This document shows positions 1,759 to 34,786 of a DNA stretch of 34,786 nucleotides, piece by piece; the stretch's first letter is position 1; each line of letters starts with the position of its first letter. Source of the DNA: Candidatus Roizmanbacteria bacterium CG_4_9_14_0_2_um_filter_39_13 (lineage in GTDB: Bacteria; Patescibacteriota; Microgenomatia; UBA1406; GWC2-37-13); assembly GCA_002788865.1 (NCBI GenBank), contig PFSC01000156.1, positions 1-34,786 on the forward strand. The letters run 5' to 3'. Both the position numbers and the translations under genes were made by a program. The notes under the pieces were generated by a model. That model ran no database searches. It was not told where the DNA came from and saw only the letters and a program-made list of their open reading frames with translations.

Positions 1759-1831
1759 TGGCTGAGGAGAGAATCGAACTCTCGACCTGTCGCTTATGAA
1801 ACGACCGCTCTAACCGCTGAGCTACCCAGCC
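1759..1831 (-). tRNA. tRNA with CAT anticodon (elongator Met, or Ile2 if lysidine-modified)
   Basis: The reverse complement GGCTGGGTAGCTCAGCGGTTAGAGCGGTCGTTTCATAAGCGACAGGTCGAGAGTTCGATTCTCTCCTCAGCCA folds as a cloverleaf. It has a 7-bp acceptor stem, a GCTC/GAGC D-stem, anticodon loop TTCATAA and a GAGAG-TTCGATT-CTCTC T-arm. The G1-C72 pair argues against an initiator. CCA is not encoded. Confidence 0.92.
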
Positions 1832-20272: not shown

Positions 20273-20356
20273 GTCATTCTGATCCGCCAGTTGGCGGAGA
20301 AGAATCCATGTTTTTATATTTTCAATGCATGGATCCTTCGTTTCACTCAGGATGAC
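20273..20356. repeat. GTCAT-hairpin repeat pair (cluster B), between the oxidoreductase alpha and beta genes
   Basis: Forward unit gtcATTCTgaTCCGCCAgtTGGCGGAgaAGAATccatg (20273-20310). Reverse unit catggATCCTtcgtttcactcAGGATgac (20328-20356). Confidence 0.85.
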
Positions 20357-23087: not shown

Positions 23088-23444
23088 TTAAATTAGTAAT
23101 TTTCTTAAACCCTCCCAACTTAAAAGCGCACATTTCATTCGGTTGGGAGTAAGTTCTATGTTCAATAATCCTAACACATCATTGACACTTATTTCTAGTA
23201 GCTCTATTTTAGTTTTTCCTTTTGCATGTTCGGTAAGCATTGATGCTGACGCAATTGAGATTGCACAACCCTCACCGGTAAAACCAATTTCCTCAATGAC
23301 GCCATCTTTTTCACGAATTTCCATGTGGATCTTGTCCCCACACAACGGATTATCAAGATCAACTTTTGAAGTTGCTCCTTTTATCGAAGAATTGTTTCGA
23401 GGATTTTGGTAATGATCCAATATCATCTCAGCATAGATACTCAT
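23088..23444 (-). CDS. sufU: SufU/IscU-type Fe-S cluster scaffold / sulfur acceptor
   Basis: 118 aa. ILDHYQNPRN, NPLCGD and FTGEGCAISIASASM motifs. Confidence 0.85.
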   Translation of the reverse strand: MSIYAEMILDHYQNPRNNSSIKGATSKVDLDNPLCGDKIHMEIREKDGVIEEIGFTGEGCAISIASASMLTEHAKGKTKIELLEISVNDVLGLLNIELTPNRMKCALLSWEGLRKLLI

Positions 23445-23458
23445 ATTAAGTTTTTTTG

Positions 23459-24022
23459 TTAATTTATAGATTCATTCTTGTTAACAACAAACGGTGTTTT
23501 TAAATCTGCATTTACCATATGATTTCTATCTTTTTCTATATCCCATTTGATTGGATTATTTCTTATATATTCACGAATGTGAAATAATGATTTTTCGTTG
23601 CGGATAACGTGATCGTAAAATGATCGTTGCCATGCAAAATTTTCTAATCCATTTTGATGAATTATTTTTGATGATGTCGTTTTAAATGCCCCAATCAATT
23701 GCGATAATGGTTTTATTATTACCATACCCACCGTAGGGACAGGTCGCGACCTGTCCCTACCACGATCAATAACCAGAATCCCATGCATATGATTGGGCAT
23801 CACCACAAATTTGTCCAACATAATATATTCGTATTGATTGGACAACCATAACCACTGGTTTTCCACAATTTTCCCATAATCATTCAGTATCATTTCTCCA
23901 TTTTTTATTTTACCGAAAAATTCTTCCCGATCATTGATACAAATGGTGACAAAATAATACCCATTTTGAGAATAATCAAAATTCTTCAATCTATTTGATT
24001 TGCGGCGTATGAGATTCTTCAT
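23459..24022 (-). CDS. REP-associated tyrosine transposase (RAYT, IS200-like Y1 HUH family)
   Basis: 187 aa. YYFVTICINDREEFFG, HUH motif MPNHMHGILVI, and WQRSFYDHVIRNEKSLFHIREYIRNNPIKW with the catalytic-Tyr region. It is inserted between sufS and sufU. Confidence 0.8.
   Translation of the reverse strand: MKNLIRRKSNRLKNFDYSQNGYYFVTICINDREEFFGKIKNGEMILNDYGKIVENQWLWLSNQYEYIMLDKFVVMPNHMHGILVIDRGRDRSRPVPTVGMVIIKPLSQLIGAFKTTSSKIIHQNGLENFAWQRSFYDHVIRNEKSLFHIREYIRNNPIKWDIEKDRNHMVNADLKTPFVVNKNESIN
23733..23760. repeat. 28-bp perfect palindrome GTAGGGACAGGTCGCGACCTGTCCCTAC, copy inside the RAYT CDS
   Basis: Perfectly self-complementary. It is read in frame as (V)GRDRSRPVPT(V) just after the HUH motif, and is identical to 24058-24085. 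Confidence 0.95.
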
Positions 24023-24057
24023 GATTTGCCTATGGATGTATATGATTACATCGACAT

Positions 24058-24085
24058 GTAGGGACAGGTCGCGACCTGTCCCTAC
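24058..24085. repeat. 28-bp perfect palindrome, copy 36 nt upstream of the RAYT start
   Basis: Identical sequence gtagggacaggtcgcgacctgtccctac. It starts with GTAG, as classical REP elements do. Confidence 0.95.
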
Positions 24086-24122
24086 GCCTGCAATTGTAAA
24101 AATATTTCCTCAATCTGTTTTT

Positions 24123-25382
24123 CTATTTCCTCAATATCTCTCTCACTCTTTTTACTCCTTTGACCAACTTCTCCACATCTTCCTCATTATTGTAAATATA
24201 AAAACTTGTTCGAACTGTTGCAGGAATATTCAACCTTGAATGAAGGGGCATTGTACAGTGATGACCTGCTCGTACCGCAATATTATTTTCATCCAGAATT
24301 TGTGCGATATCATGGGGATGAATTCCCTTCAAATTGAAAGAAATAATCCCAGCCATAAACTCAATATGTCGAGGTCCGTACATCACTATTTCATCAGAAA
24401 ATTCTTCGTTCAATCTCCTTGCCGCATACATCGCCAACTGTTTCTCATGATTTCTGATCGTATCAAAACCAAGATTTTCCAAGTATGCAATAGCTTCCTT
24501 CAACGCAATTACTCCAGAAATATTGGGTGTTCCTGCCTCAAATTTATGAGGAACATCTGCAAATGTAGTTTCCTCAATTGACACGTTTCGGATCATATCT
24601 CCACCATATTGATATGGCGGCATTTTTTCCAGAAGATCATACTTTCCCCACAAAACTCCAACTCCGGTTGGACCCAGCATTTTATGGGAAGAAAATGCAA
24701 GAAAATCACACCCCAAGTCATGCACATCAATTTTTAAATGCGGAACTGCTTGTGCAGCGTCAACAATAGTGATAATATCTGGACTGACTTTTTTTGCTTC
24801 AGCAATAATTTCCTTTACTGGATTTATCGTTCCAAGAGTGTTGGATACCATGGAAACTGCAAGTATTTTTGTTTTTTTTGTCACGATCCCATCGAGACTA
24901 ATATTAAATATCGTATTTTCCCCCCGTCGATCTGATTTTTCCACAATTGAAAGCTCGTAATGATCATTGATACCAATCACCTTGAAATCAGCTCCGACAG
25001 TGAATGCCAACTGCTGCCACGGCACAAAATTAGCATGATGTTCCATGATCGTCACCACAACCTCATCTCCCTTACTCACGATTTCCTGTCCGAGCGTTGA
25101 TGCGACAAGATTGAGCGACTCCGTTGCATTCCGCGTGAAAACGATCTCTTCTGAGCGGTTTGCATTGATATATTTTGCAACGACGGCTCTGGTATCTTCG
25201 TATTCCTGCGATGCTCTTTCTGAAAGTTTATATATTCCACGATGGATGTTTGCAGAATACTGAGTATAGTACTCTGACATCTTGTCAATGACGGACTGTG
25301 GCTTGAGCGAAGTTGCTCCCGAATCTAGATACACCAACTCTGGATGGGCGCTAAAAATAGGAAAATCTTTTTTTACATTCAT
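24123..25382 (-). CDS. sufS: cysteine desulfurase SufS (class V aminotransferase)
   Basis: 419 aa. HHANFVPWQQLA, FSSHKMLGPTGVGVLWG (PLP lysine) and RAGHHCTMPL (catalytic Cys loop). Confidence 0.9.
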   Translation of the reverse strand: MNVKKDFPIFSAHPELVYLDSGATSLKPQSVIDKMSEYYTQYSANIHRGIYKLSERASQEYEDTRAVVAKYINANRSEEIVFTRNATESLNLVASTLGQEIVSKGDEVVVTIMEHHANFVPWQQLAFTVGADFKVIGINDHYELSIVEKSDRRGENTIFNISLDGIVTKKTKILAVSMVSNTLGTINPVKEIIAEAKKVSPDIITIVDAAQAVPHLKIDVHDLGCDFLAFSSHKMLGPTGVGVLWGKYDLLEKMPPYQYGGDMIRNVSIEETTFADVPHKFEAGTPNISGVIALKEAIAYLENLGFDTIRNHEKQLAMYAARRLNEEFSDEIVMYGPRHIEFMAGIISFNLKGIHPHDIAQILDENNIAVRAGHHCTMPLHSRLNIPATVRTSFYIYNNEEDVEKLVKGVKRVREILRK

Positions 25383-27572: not shown

Positions 27573-27579
27573 TATTATT

Positions 27580-27728
27580 GTCATTCTGAGTAGGAGCGAA
27601 AGCGACGACCGAAGAATCCATGTATTGTCATGCTGAATTTATAGTTCAGCATCTTTGATCGATAGATCCTGAAACAAGTTCAGGATGACAGTGAGATACA
27701 TGGATCCTTCGCTCACGCTCGGGATGAC
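27580..27728. repeat. GTCAT-hairpin repeat cluster C (four units) filling the sufB-sufD spacer
   Basis: - 27580-27622: gtcattctgagtaggagcgaaagcgacgaccgaagaatccatg
- 27627-27652: gtcATGCTGAAtttatagTTCAGCAT
- 27665-27689: reverse unit gATCCTGAAacaagTTCAGGATgac
- 27699-27728: reverse unit catggatccttcgctcacgctcgggatgac. Confidence 0.85.
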
Positions 27729-29355: not shown

Positions 29356-29368
29356 AATAAATTCTCAT

Positions 29369-29551
29369 GTCATCCTGATCCCGACTTTACCTTGGGAGAA
29401 GGATCCATGCATTGTCATCCCACACTTACCTGCTCGCCCCCGCCTGCAACGCTACTATGCGTAGCATTTGCGGGCAGGTCTGGAGAGTGATTTAGGATCC
29501 AGAAAATACATGGATTCTTCGGTCGTCGCTTTCGCTCTTACTCAGAATGAT
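29369..29551. repeat. GTCAT-hairpin repeat cluster D (three units) between tsaD and tsaC-tsaE
   Basis: - 29369-29409: gtcatcctgatcccgactttaccttgggagaaggatccatg
- 29414-29502: long unit with a nested hairpin (ACCTGC...GCTACtatgcGTAGC...GCAGGT)
- 29509-29551: reverse unit whose complement matches 27580-27622 at 41 of 43 positions. Confidence 0.85.
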
Positions 29552-29557
29552 AAATAA

Positions 29558-30711: not shown

Positions 30712-30837
30712 TGACACTCCCCGACCCAAGGGTCAAGGTATCTTGTGTCATCCCCGACCTGATCCCCGTTTTCACGGGGACGGATCCAGATCATTGTAAT
30801 AATCTAAAAACTGGATTCCTGCCTTCGCAGGAATGAC
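30712..30837. repeat. GTCAT-hairpin repeat cluster E upstream of ftsH / tsaC-tsaE
   Basis: - 30712-30745: partial unit (tgacactccccGACCCaaGGGTC...)
- 30747-30789: gtcatccccgacctgaTCCCCGttttcaCGGGGAcggatccag
- 30811-30837: reverse unit ctggATTCCTGCcttcGCAGGAATgac. Confidence 0.8.
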
Positions 30838-30901
30838 AAACTGTGTCAAGAACCCTGAACTCTTTCAATCTTTTTAACACCCTGATTTTCCCCACATGAT
30901 A

Positions 30902-34603: not shown

Positions 34604-34666
34604 GTTATTCTGAGCGTAGCGAAGAATCCATGGACCCTTCTCCCACCAAGGCGGGATCAGGATGAC
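34604..34666. repeat. GTCAT-hairpin repeat pair (cluster F)
   Basis: Forward unit gttATTCTgagcgtagcgaAGAATccatg (34604-34632), sharing CCATGG with reverse unit catggacccttctcccaccaaggcgggatcaggatgac (34629-34666). Confidence 0.85.
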
Positions 34667-34760
34667 ATGTTCGATGGAAAGCGACGGGGAATTAGACTTA
34701 GTATGGGATTGGATACATAATAAATTTGAAGGTAAGAGTTCACTCTTCTTGACACACGTT

Positions 34761-34786
34761 GTCATTCCCGCCCCCGATCGGAGTCG
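34761..34786. repeat. GTCAT-hairpin repeat unit truncated by the window end
   Basis: gtcattcccgcccccgatcggagtcg starts with the family 5' terminus. Confidence 0.6.

What the first reader, a model, noticed from the sequence alone, without database searches (positions are those of the whole stretch)
23459..24085. RAYT transposase carrying its own 28-bp GTAG palindrome in frame, inserted between sufS and sufU
A Y1 HUH transposase of the REP-associated (RAYT) type splits the sufS-sufU pair. The perfect palindrome GTAGGGACAGGTCGCGACCTGTCCCTAC occurs twice. One copy lies 36 nt upstream of the gene (24058-24085). The other lies inside the coding sequence (23733-23760), translated as GRDRSRPVPT immediately after the HUH motif. 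Classical REPs begin with GTAG and flank their RAYT in inverted orientation. Here the second copy is embedded in the enzyme's own gene without breaking the frame. The hairpin may therefore be both substrate and coding sequence, may autoregulate the mRNA, or may mark a recombination that rebuilt the gene. This palindrome differs from the abundant GTCAT repeats, which raises the question of which repeat family this enzyme serves.
Basis: partly seen in the sequence, partly recalled or inferred. Interest (0 to 1): 0.65.

Follow-up and report, generated by a model that had tools for sequence, protein, structure and literature searches.

The report
RAYT transposase gene carrying its own REP
A small REP-associated transposase gene, inserted between two iron-sulfur assembly genes, carries a copy of its own 28-base target palindrome inside its coding sequence; this is real, but it is a published hallmark of this transposase subfamily, so this is a new example and not a new kind of thing.

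Summary
The perfect palindrome GTAGGGACAGGTCGCGACCTGTCCCTAC occurs at 23733-23760 and 24058-24085. The first copy lies in frame (G88-T97) in a 187-aa HUH/Y1 gene (23459-24022, minus strand). The second lies 35 nt upstream of its ATG. This gene-plus-REP unit fills a 678-nt sufS-sufU spacer that is 0-18 nt long in the closest relatives.

It is not new. Quentin et al. 2018 (PMC6006769) describe TnpA_REP subclass 2.4 (RAYT group 4) with "double-foot" GTAG...CTAC REPs that flank the gene and also sit inside it, in frame, between HuH and Y. This protein fits that description: NHMH, WQ, YIRNNP, a variable beta3-alphaC loop, and 4ER8 as best fold match.

Points I did not find in the text read:
- In 75 homologous genes, about 71 keep a hairpin at this site and 42 keep a perfect 28-mer.
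- The hairpin is read in either stop-free frame (VGTGRDLSL 24, RDRSRPVPT 18, TAG frame 0).
- Ten variants differ by paired changes, and flanking or genomic copies match them.
- The exact 28-mer occurs in at least 120 stretches across many phyla.
- Single-footed upstream and internal copies are inverted relative to each other.

The DNA is the conserved entity and the peptide is a by-product. Any regulatory role is untested. Interest is modest.

The parts
23459..24022 (-). RAYT / TnpA_REP gene (187 aa, stop codon included), subclass 2.4-like
   Evidence: ORF. Pfam Y1_Tnp above cutoff. 1280 homologues, several of them named 'REP element-mobilizing transposase RayT'. AF2 model with mean pLDDT 87.5. 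Best PDB fold match is 4er8_A, E. coli TnpA_REP.
23733..23760 (.). Intragenic REP: perfect 28-nt double-foot palindrome encoding G88-T97 (GRDRSRPVPT)
   Evidence: It lies in the low-confidence loop 86-105 between the HUH strand (78-85) and helix 106-123. A hairpin is present at the same site in about 71 of 75 homologues.
24058..24085 (.). Upstream REP: identical 28-nt palindrome in the sufS-RAYT spacer, 35 nt before the ATG and 37 nt after the sufS stop
   Evidence: Eleven homologous loci, counted alongside the window, have a copy (0-3 mismatches to their internal variant) 287-389 nt upstream of the internal one; the window's spacing is 325 nt. Where inspected, the upstream copy usually ends 10-35 nt from the start codon.
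23783..23791 (-). HUH motif codons (H78-M79-H80)
   Evidence: Translation. H78 is invariant and H80 is conserved in at least 90% of the 50-sequence alignment.
23555..23569 (-). Catalytic Tyr motif Y152-I-R-N-N156 (the P157 codon follows at 23552-23554), matching the class-2 signature Y---NP and the subclass 2.4 signature YIxNNP
   Evidence: The alignment to 4er8 places Y152 on Y115 and N156 on N119. The signature is from Table 1 of PMC6006769.
23600..23632 (-). WQRSFYDHVIR (W131-R141): counterpart of the GTAG-recognition segment of E. coli TnpA_REP (W94, Q95, E100, H101, R104)
   Evidence: HMM alignment to 4er8_A. The residue roles are as stated in PMC6006769.
23445..24122 (-). Inserted segment as a whole: the 678-nt sufS-sufU spacer holding the REP, the RAYT gene and short flanks. 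There is no downstream REP.
   Evidence: The spacer is 18 nt in L201 (SufS 81% and SufU 92% identical), about 5 nt in L202 and about 0 nt in L203.
24123..25382 (-). sufS (context, upstream neighbour on the same strand)
   Evidence: TIGR01979, 544 bits against a cutoff of 475.
23088..23444 (-). sufU (context, downstream neighbour; starts 14 nt after the RAYT stop)
   Evidence: TIGR01994, 114 bits against a cutoff of 92.5.

Best explanation
This is a REPtron of the TnpA_REP subclass 2.4 / RAYT group 4 type: a Y1 HUH single-strand DNA endonuclease gene together with its cognate 'double-foot' REP. It has landed in the short sufS-sufU spacer of a probable Patescibacteria genome, in the same orientation as the operon.

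Shown: the intragenic palindrome is not a local accident. It is the family's conserved REP copy, placed in the disordered surface loop between the HUH strand and the next helix. What is conserved is the DNA hairpin. The peptide (GRDRSRPVPT here, VGTGRDLSL in relatives that read the same DNA one base over) is a tolerated by-product.

Inferred: the enzyme binds the hairpin plus GTAG foot on single-stranded DNA and cleaves and rejoins next to it, using H78/H80/Y152/N156, as shown for E. coli TnpA_REP. The in-gene copy is a genuine recognition site. It is paired in inverted orientation with the REP in the 5' leader, so enzyme and substrate are always inherited and transferred together. It is kept intact by the same forces that keep the genome's other REP copies alike: recognition by the RAYT, copying or conversion between copies, and intrastrand correction of palindromes.

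Whether it also throttles expression of the gene is unknown.
For: Identity of the gene:
- Pfam Y1_Tnp is above its cutoff.
- The best fold match is 4er8_A, TnpA_REP bound to a REP (E 2.5e-8).
- The catalytic and GTAG-contact residues align with those of 4er8.
- The motifs NHMH, WQ and YIRNNP, the 187-aa length and the variable loop fit Table 1 of PMC6006769. That paper states that subclass 2.4 has double-foot REPs flanking and inserted in frame within the gene, between HuH and Y.

The loop is tolerant:
- Residues 86-105 have no secondary structure, and mean pLDDT is 61 for block 91-100.

Conservation at the DNA level:
- Of 75 parsed homologous ORFs, 42 hold a perfect 28-nt palindrome at this site. 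It is in frame 0 in 24, frame 1 in 18, and the TAG frame in 0.
- Most of the rest keep hairpins with arms of 6-19 bp. Only four lack a hairpin; the two inspected by eye (L165, L194) have a shorter loop.
- There are ten variants, all perfect palindromes that differ by paired changes.
- Third codon positions in the two most conserved peptide motifs are only 57-62% identical between genes that share the identical 28-mer.
- The two frames are interspersed on a protein tree.

Cognate relationship:
- Flanking copies carry the same variant as the internal one: L126, L175, L180 and L200 match exactly, and L125, L187, L162 and L178 differ by 1-2 nt.
- The rare variant GTAGGGACAACCCTAGGGTTGTCCCTAC occurs in only 22 stretches. 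Seven are in one Falkowbacteria MAG, whose RAYT holds that same variant internally.

Dispersal:
- The window's 28-mer occurs in at least 120 stretches in many phyla. 105 of these have no RAYT in the same 8-kb chunk.

Orientation:
- Among single-footed copies, the upstream one has its foot on the sense strand in 17 cases and on the antisense strand in 5. The internal one has it on the antisense strand in 18 cases and on the sense strand in 3.

Insertion:
- The spacer is 0-18 nt in relatives and 678 nt here.
Against: - No activity was or could be tested.
- Only two copies are visible in this 34.8-kb window, and both belong to the REPtron. Dissemination in this particular genome is therefore not shown.
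- There is no downstream REP here.
- NCBIfam's REP_Tyr_transpos equivalog cutoff is not reached (67.4 against 80).
- The authors' subclass profiles were not available, so the subclass assignment rests on motifs and architecture.
- The strand-asymmetry counts include close relatives, giving roughly nine independent clades, so the statistics are softer than the raw numbers.
- Perfect palindromy could be kept by template-switch correction without any selection.
- The protein tree is a poorly resolved NJ tree.
Confidence: 0.75

Rival explanations
1. Neutral passenger. REPs simply insert again and again into the one loop of the protein that tolerates anything. The copy has no role and is not maintained; what we see is survivorship.
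For: - The loop is length-variable and littered with half-copies and double copies: L133, L185, L150, L167 and P0003.
- Quentin et al. suggest the loop is peripheral with little impact on activity.
- REPs occur in frame in many unrelated genes (PMC3733652).
- Four homologues have lost the hairpin.
Against: - About 71 of 75 genes that are only about 50-70% identical at protein level keep a hairpin at this one site. Only two further copies overlap the coding sequence, both at its 3' end.
- Decay is strand-asymmetric, with the antisense foot kept in 18 cases against 3, which a passenger would not show.
- The upstream partner sits at a consistent distance.
Confidence: 0.12
2. Self-regulatory element. 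Either the mRNA hairpins (one in the leader, one in the ORF) limit translation or mRNA life, or the RAYT acts on the inverted REP pair in DNA and damages or deletes the HUH-encoding half of its own gene. Either way, activity is kept low.
For: - Both copies fold as 12-bp GC-rich RNA hairpins (-27 and -28 kcal/mol; z-scores -3.8 and -5.5).
- In many relatives the upstream REP ends 10-20 nt from the start codon, where it could mask the ribosome-binding site.
- The upstream and internal copies form an inverted pair bracketing the leader and the first ~90 codons.
Against: - In imperfect internal hairpins, mismatches on the sense strand are not biased to G:U wobble (10 G:T, 24 A:C, 38 other). That argues against selection on the RNA fold.
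- In this window the upstream copy is 35 nt from the ATG, not over the ribosome-binding site.
- No deletion products were looked for, and no expression data exist.
Confidence: 0.1
3. The peptide is the selected feature: an Arg/Pro-rich loop (RDRSRPVPT) that helps bind DNA. The palindrome would then be a coincidence of codon choice.
For: RDRSRPVPT is the alignment consensus among the closest homologues. The loop lies next to the HUH strand.
Against: - 24 of 42 genes read the same DNA in the other frame, giving the unrelated peptide VGTGRDLSL.
- Variant palindromes give other peptides again, such as GRDNPRVVPT, VGTTHELSL and VGNGRDRSL.
- The same 28-mer is found at more than 100 sites with no RAYT gene in the same 8-kb chunk.
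- The loop has low model confidence.
Confidence: 0.02
4. Chance match or assembly artefact.
For: None.
Against: None of 100 shuffles gave a match. A protein 99% identical to this one, over its full length, exists in an independent assembly (P0001). The same architecture is found in dozens of genomes.
Confidence: 0.01

Closest known systems
TnpA_REP subclass 2.4 (Quentin, Siguier, Chandler, Fichant 2018, BMC Genomics 19:475, PMC6006769) = RAYT group 4 (Bertels et al. 2017, PMC5581495)
   Same: - The motif set matches (NHuH, WQ, YIxNNP), and the length is similar (187 aa; subclass median 194).
- There is a variable insert between beta3 and alphaC.
- The REP is long and 'double-foot' (5' GTAG ... 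CTAC 3').
- REPs occur next to the gene and inside it, in frame, between HuH and Y.
- The taxonomic spread is patchy and multi-phylum, and copy number is low.
   Different: - The host is apparently Patescibacteria/CPR, a group not named in the parts of those two surveys read here; Cyanobacteria, Bacteroidetes, Chlorobia and others are named.
- The HUH middle residue is Met.
- There is no downstream REP.
- The text I could read does not mention the use of two reading frames, the paired-change variants that match the flanks, the cross-phylum identity of one 28-mer, or the opposite orientation of upstream and internal copies. Their supplementary figures S6 and S10 were not seen.
E. coli TnpA_REP (YafM) with REP/BIME; structure 4ER8 (Messing et al. 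2012, PMC3479197)
   Same: It is the best fold match. H, H, Y115 and N119, and the GTAG-contact residues W94, Q95, H101 and R104, all have counterparts; E100 is replaced by D137. The REP has a GTAG foot.
   Different: E. coli belongs to subclass 2.2 (DHLH, WE, YIHYNP). Its REPs have bulged long stems and only flank the gene, and it has no beta3-alphaC insert. Sequence identity is 23%.
IS200/IS605 TnpA (IS608, ISDra2)
   Same: The HUH/Y1 fold is shared, and both recognise hairpins on single-stranded DNA.
   Different: Class 1 has the Y---Q motif, whereas this protein has Y---NP. There is no tnpB, no pair of like-oriented subterminal hairpins at defined ends, and the gene is not multicopy here.
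In-frame palindromic repeats in other genes: intragenic GTAG/CGTC REPs (Di Nocera et al. 2013, PMC3733652) and the Rickettsia RPE cited there
   Same: A short palindromic repeat is inserted in a coding sequence without breaking the frame.
   Different: Those cases are scattered across unrelated genes and sites. Here the host gene is the repeat's own enzyme, and the site is conserved across the whole subfamily.

Membership tests
RAYT / TnpA_REP (class 2 Y1 HUH endonucleases) | HUH motif and a single catalytic Tyr in the context Y---NP | tested here: met
   H78-M-H80 and Y152-IRN-N156-P157. These align to Y115/N119 of 4er8. The class signature is from PMC6006769.
RAYT / TnpA_REP (class 2 Y1 HUH endonucleases) | Profile match | tested here: inconclusive
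   Pfam PF01797 scores 24.6 bits, above its cutoff of 23. NCBIfam NF047646 'REP-associated tyrosine transposase' scores 67.4 bits, below its equivalog cutoff of 80.
RAYT / TnpA_REP (class 2 Y1 HUH endonucleases) | Fold of TnpA_REP | tested here: met
   AF2 model with pLDDT 87.5 and pTM 0.78. The top Foldseek hit is 4er8_A (E 2.5e-8, TM 0.55/0.62), followed by IS608 and ISDra2 TnpA.
RAYT / TnpA_REP (class 2 Y1 HUH endonucleases) | GTAG-footed REP hairpin next to the gene | tested here: met
   There is a 28-nt palindrome with GTAG/CTAC feet 35 nt upstream, plus one inside the gene.
RAYT / TnpA_REP (class 2 Y1 HUH endonucleases) | The same REP dispersed in many copies in the host genome | tested here: inconclusive
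   Only 2 copies are present in the 34.8-kb window. In other genomes with this RAYT type, several solo copies are seen, for example in the sponge-associated MAGs and in Falkowbacteria JACRDY01.
RAYT / TnpA_REP (class 2 Y1 HUH endonucleases) | Sequence-specific ssDNA binding and cleavage of the REP | not testable with these tools
   A biochemical assay is needed.
TnpA_REP subclass 2.4 / RAYT group 4 | Consensus motifs NH[IFV]H, WQ and YIxNNP; length about 194 aa | tested here: met
   The protein has NHMH. Met is among the hydrophobic residues the paper lists for class 2, and homologues in alignment A1 show F, I, L, V, M or T at this position. It also has WQ and YIRNNP, and is 187 aa long.
TnpA_REP subclass 2.4 / RAYT group 4 | Insert between beta3 and alphaC that varies in length and sequence | tested here: met
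   The distance from HUH to WQ ranges from 144 to 273 nt among 75 homologues. In the model, residues 86-105 form a loop between strand 78-85 and helix 106-123.
TnpA_REP subclass 2.4 / RAYT group 4 | Long 'double-foot' REP (5' GT[AG]G ... C[TC]AC 3') | tested here: met
   GTAG-GGACAGGTCGCGACCTGTCC-CTAC.
TnpA_REP subclass 2.4 / RAYT group 4 | REP inserted within the tnpA_REP gene between HuH and Y without breaking the frame | tested here: met
   Window and 42 of 75 homologues with a perfect copy.
TnpA_REP subclass 2.4 / RAYT group 4 | Placement by the authors' own HMM profiles or tree | not testable with these tools
   The profiles and reference sequences are not on hand.
IS200/IS605 TnpA (class 1) | Y---Q catalytic motif, frequent tnpB partner, multicopy IS with defined hairpin ends | tested here: not met
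   The motif is Y---NP. No second ORF fits in the 678-nt insert, and the gene is single-copy in the window.

The most novel reading that the evidence does not exclude
The intragenic REP is not merely tolerated. It is a selected cis element: one half of a conserved inverted REP pair (5' leader copy with its foot on the sense strand, in-gene copy with its foot on the antisense strand) that brackets the leader and the HUH-encoding half of the gene. In this reading it serves as the element's built-in master or seed copy, and perhaps as a DNA-level self-limiting switch. That would explain why one exact 28-mer and its enzyme travel together across more than ten bacterial phyla.
Probability: 0.2. Interest if true: 0.6.

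Novelty: new member of a known kind. Interest (0 to 1): 0.33.

Why it matters
As an annotation result it is useful but ordinary. It explains a 678-nt interruption of the sufS-sufU pair. It also explains the odd 'GRDRSRPVPT' and 'VGTGRDLSL' peptides that recur in metagenomic RAYT proteins, and it answers which repeat this enzyme goes with.

The wider pattern deserves a proper comparative study. How RAYTs and REPs stay matched, and how REPs spread, is still poorly understood. Three features stand out: an enzyme gene that always carries its own substrate, DNA-level conservation that overrides the reading frame, and near-identical REPs across phyla. Together they offer a compact system in which recognition, maintenance and possible self-regulation could be tested with one small protein and one 28-mer.

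Tried and rejected
- **Chance:** rejected.
- **Peptide-level conservation:** rejected, because two reading frames and many variant peptides are used.
- **Upstream REP as an intrinsic terminator or part of a promoter:** no terminator-like or sigma-70-like site lies in the sufS-RAYT spacer, and the hairpin is not followed by a T-run.
- **Known RNA family:** none was found in the region. The only Rfam hit in the window is a tRNA at 1759-1831.
- **GTCAT repeats as the enzyme's substrate:** no GTCAT-type unit lies within 3 kb of the gene, and flanking copies in relatives are always the GTAG palindrome. The only link seen is the composite unit in some other genomes described under Noticed in passing.
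- **Plasmid or phage vehicle:** only 6 plasmid and 1 phage records carry distant relatives (41% identity or less). Only 4 viral contigs hold the 28-mer.
- **Precise insertion boundaries or a target duplication:** the spacers of relatives are too short and too diverged to align.
- **RNA-fold selection via G:U bias:** no such bias was found.
- **REP variants tracking the protein tree:** the NJ tree is too star-like to decide.
- **Invariance of the 28-mer among the 20 genes:** this holds by construction, because those genes were selected for carrying it. Only the contrast with their variable third codon positions is informative.
Full report
**1. The observation**

The 28-nt perfect palindrome GTAGGGACAGGTCGCGACCTGTCCCTAC is present exactly twice in the window, at 23733-23760 and 24058-24085. 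No further copies appear at up to 3 mismatches, and none of 100 dinucleotide-preserving shuffles gave a match.

The ORF 23459..24022 (minus strand, 187 aa) reads ...VVMPNHMHGILVIDRGRDRSRPVPTVGMVIIKPLSQLIGAFKTTSSK.... The palindrome supplies codons G88 to T97, seven residues after H80. The second copy ends 35 nt before the ATG and starts 37 nt after the sufS stop codon.

The ORF matches Pfam Y1_Tnp (24.6 bits, cutoff 23). It also matches NCBIfam REP-associated tyrosine transposase, but below the equivalog cutoff (67.4 against 80). The neighbours on the same strand are SufS (24123-25382) and SufU (23088-23444), both well above their curated cutoffs. sufC and sufB lie divergently upstream.

**2. 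It is an insertion into sufS-sufU**

In the closest relatives found by SufS, the order is sufS-sufU-ferredoxin. L201 has SufS 81%, SufU 92% and ferredoxin 97% identical to the window; L202 has SufS 73% identical and L203 66%. Their sufS-sufU spacers are 18, about 5 and about 0 nt, and most of the more distant loci listed (L204-L225) also have spacers under ~35 nt, a few being longer. In the window the spacer is 678 nt (23445-24122).

The spacer consists of 37 nt, the REP, 35 nt, the RAYT gene and 14 nt. There is no REP downstream of the gene. No promoter-like or terminator-like site falls in the sufS-RAYT spacer. The gene is therefore probably transcribed with the operon; this is an inference.

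**3. What the protein is**

There are 1280 homologues with E of 1e-5 or better. Most come from Patescibacteria and other uncultured lineages, and several are named 'REP element-mobilizing transposase RayT' by their sources.

An AlphaFold model built on 50 homologues has mean pLDDT 87.5. Its only internal stretch of low confidence is at residues ~86-105, which have no secondary structure and lie between the HUH strand (78-85) and helix 106-123. The best PDB match is 4er8_A, E. coli TnpA_REP bound to a REP hairpin, followed by IS608 and ISDra2 TnpA.

The profile alignment to 4er8 gives these correspondences:

| Window protein | E. coli TnpA_REP |
|---|---|
| W131 | W94 |
| Q132 | Q95 |
| D137 | E100 |
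| H138 | H101 |
| R141 | R104 |
| Y152 | Y115 |
| N156 | N119 |

These cover the GTAG-contact residues and the catalytic residues listed in PMC6006769. Nothing suggests the gene is defective.

**4. This architecture is already described**

Quentin, Siguier, Chandler and Fichant (2018, PMC6006769) define TnpA_REP subclass 2.4, which equals RAYT group 4 of Bertels et al. 2017. Its features are:

- consensus motifs NH[IFV]H, WQ and YIxNNP;
- median length 194 aa;
- long REPs that are either canonical or 'double foot' (5' GT[AG]G and 3' C[TC]AC);

They model the insert as a peripheral extension with little expected effect on activity. Bertels et al. describe group 4 as spread over 17 classes in 61 species, with low-abundance flanking 16-mers.

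The window's gene fits every point I could test: NHMH, WQ, YIRNNP, 187 aa, the loop, a double-foot REP, and a REP both beside and inside the gene. In-frame REPs in other genes are also documented (PMC3733652). The finding is therefore a new member of a known kind.

**5. What the comparison adds**

I fetched 80 genomic loci encoding homologues and parsed 75 ORFs.

(a) *The hairpin is nearly universal at this site.*
- 42 ORFs hold a perfect 28-nt double-foot palindrome between HUH and WQ.
- Most of the rest keep a shorter hairpin from the same sequence, with arms of 6-19 bp.
- Only L165, L194, L173 and L181 have none; in the two I compared by eye, L165 and L194, the loop is shorter than the window's.

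(b) *The DNA is conserved, not the peptide.*
- The palindrome is read in frame 0 (VGTGRDLSL type) in 24 genes and in frame 1 (RDRSRPVPT type, as here) in 18.
- It is never read in frame 2, which would give a TAG stop.
- The two frames are interspersed on a protein tree, though that tree is poorly resolved.

(c) *Variants change by paired substitutions.*
- Ten different perfect palindromes occur.
- They differ from one another by paired changes in both arms.

(d) *The 28-mer outlasts synonymous sites.*
- Twenty genes share the identical 28-mer.
- In those genes, the third codon positions of the two most conserved peptide motifs are only 57-62% identical.
- The invariance of the 28-mer in that set is by selection of the set. 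The contrast with the third positions is the informative part.

(e) *Flanking copies follow the internal variant.*
- The match is exact in L126, L175, L180 and L200, and within 1-2 nt in L125, L187, L162 and L178.
- Eleven homologous loci besides the window have a copy (0-3 mismatches to their internal variant) 287-389 nt upstream of the internal one; the window's spacing is 325 nt.
- Downstream copies, where present, mostly lie 22-220 nt after the stop.

(f) *The genome's dispersed copies also follow the internal variant.*
- The variant GTAGGGACAACCCTAGGGTTGTCCCTAC occurs in only 22 stretches of the genome collection.
- Seven of these are in one Falkowbacteria MAG, whose RAYT carries that variant internally.

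(g) *Single-footed copies are oriented.*
- The upstream copy has its GTAG foot on the sense strand in 17 cases and on the antisense strand in 5.
- The internal copy has its foot on the antisense strand in 18 cases and on the sense strand in 3.
- The two therefore form an inverted pair around the leader and the HUH-encoding half of the gene.
- These counts include close relatives, giving roughly nine independent clades.
- In many loci the upstream copy ends 10-20 nt from the start codon.

**6. The repeat outside the gene**

The phyla include Patescibacteria, Bacteroidota, Nitrospinota, Fibrobacterota, Spirochaetia, Methylococcales, Calditrichia, Ignavibacteria, Aminicenantes and Zixibacteria.

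Only 15 of the 120 have a RAYT homologue in the same 8-kb chunk. Solo copies are depleted from long open frames: 36% lie in frames of 200 codons or more, against 81% for random positions. The repeat is rare on plasmids, phages and viral contigs.

**7. How it most likely works**

*Shown:* a subclass 2.4-type RAYT gene with intact catalytic and GTAG-contact residues; a cognate double-foot REP in its leader and in its permissive loop; and DNA-level conservation that is independent of the reading frame.

*Inferred from the E. coli enzyme (4ER8) and the family literature:* the protein binds the hairpin plus foot on single-stranded DNA and cleaves and rejoins beside it.

*My reading:* the in-gene copy is a real recognition site and the partner of the leader copy. 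Enzyme and substrate are therefore never separated, including during horizontal transfer. The copy stays intact through the same processes that keep the other REP copies alike.

*Rivals:*
- A purely neutral passenger in a tolerant loop. This is hard to square with about 95% retention at one site and with strand-asymmetric decay.
- Self-regulation through RNA hairpins or through action on the inverted DNA pair. This is plausible and untested. Both copies fold at -27 to -28 kcal/mol, but mismatches in imperfect internal hairpins show no G:U bias.
- A functional peptide. This is excluded by the two reading frames.
- Template-switch correction of palindromes could produce the paired changes without any selection. 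I cannot exclude that.

**8. Verdict**

The identification is correct, but the implied novelty is not: this is the published hallmark of TnpA_REP subclass 2.4. The host group (probable Patescibacteria) and the comparative details in section 5 may be new, but they need a proper phylogenetic treatment and a look at the 2018 supplementary figures.

The GTCAT-type repeats of the window are a different family with no detected link to this gene. In some Nitrospinota and sponge-associated MAGs, however, the GTAG palindrome sits about 20 nt from a GTCATTCCGGCGAAAGCCGGAATGAC palindrome.

Noticed in passing
REP families are usually described as species- or genus-specific, so this breadth is unusual.
   Followed up: partly
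L007:703, L010:5893, L034:2599, L076:5006, L088:143, L093:5306, L104:3070, L111:7455, L117:171; L282:3100, L284:1061, L286:5592, L298:2844, L301:4725: Some solo copies sit exactly at the centre of a locus-specific inverted repeat of 5-18 bp: 9 of 124 copies where 0.28 are expected, and 5 of 22 for the variant where 0.06 are expected. Either the REP inserts into the tip of existing hairpins (some look like terminators, with a T-run following), or palindromes grow outward by template switching.
   Followed up: partly
L133:2849-2903, L185:2781-2838, L167:2756-2819, L031:250-317, L098, L059, L109; proteins P0003 and P0060: Tandem arrays of half-palindromes (one arm plus a few bases, in units of 15-27 nt) lie next to a full copy. 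Inside RAYT genes they appear as peptide repeats such as VGTGRDAAS x3 or GKPVPT xN. These are probably the 'short repeats' mentioned in PMC6006769.
   Followed up: partly
L124, L129, L137, L138, L146, L153, L157, L164, L172, L186, L199 and others: When REPs are single-footed, the upstream copy keeps its GTAG foot on the sense strand and the in-gene copy keeps it on the antisense strand. They form an inverted pair about 300 nt apart. In many loci the upstream copy ends 10-20 nt from the start codon.
   Followed up: partly
L008, L013, L017, L023, L040, L043, L044, L061, L063, L066, L107 (Nitrospinota and sponge-associated MAGs): The GTAG palindrome lies 19-23 nt from a second palindrome, GTCATTCCGGCGAAAGCCGGAATGAC (CGTC/GTCAT type). 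Together they form a composite repeated unit.
   Followed up: partly
window 20273-20356, 27578-27728, 29366-29553, 30827-30864, 34610-34775: These are clusters of imperfect GTCAT[TC]C[TC]GA ... GGATCC/GAATCCATG ... TC[AG]GGATGAC repeats in intergenic stretches. They include a 52-nt inverted pair at 27578-27629 / 29502-29553 that brackets about 1.9 kb. They form a different family from the GTAG palindrome. The pentamer GTCAT itself is not enriched (39 observed, 37 expected).
   Followed up: partly
L049:606: One solo copy is flanked on both sides by a direct repeat of about 30 nt (agaattgtgaa.aagggattacattttatg). This is unlike the other sites.
   Followed up: no
L045:5783 and 6274; L085:1679 and 3561; L116:1608 and 1950: In each of these loci, a pair of copies shares one or both flanks. 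This points to local segmental duplication that includes the REP.
   Followed up: no
L179:~2740-2780: This in-gene hairpin has been extended to a perfect 38-nt palindrome (ATCCCGTACGGAACGGTCGCGACCGTTCCGTACGGGAT) with a mutated foot (GTACGG).
   Followed up: no
window 24000-24239 (+): A 79-aa ORF on the opposite strand reads the upstream REP as CRDRSRPVPT. This is a trivial consequence of the palindrome and almost certainly not a gene.
   Followed up: no
L201, L205, L209, L211 and others: Several MAGs titled 'uncultured Gammaproteobacteria bacterium' carry suf loci closest to this window and to Patescibacteria (Roizmanbacteria and similar). The labels may be wrong.
   Followed up: no
window 1759-1831 (-): A tRNA gene; it is the only Rfam match in the window.
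   Followed up: no
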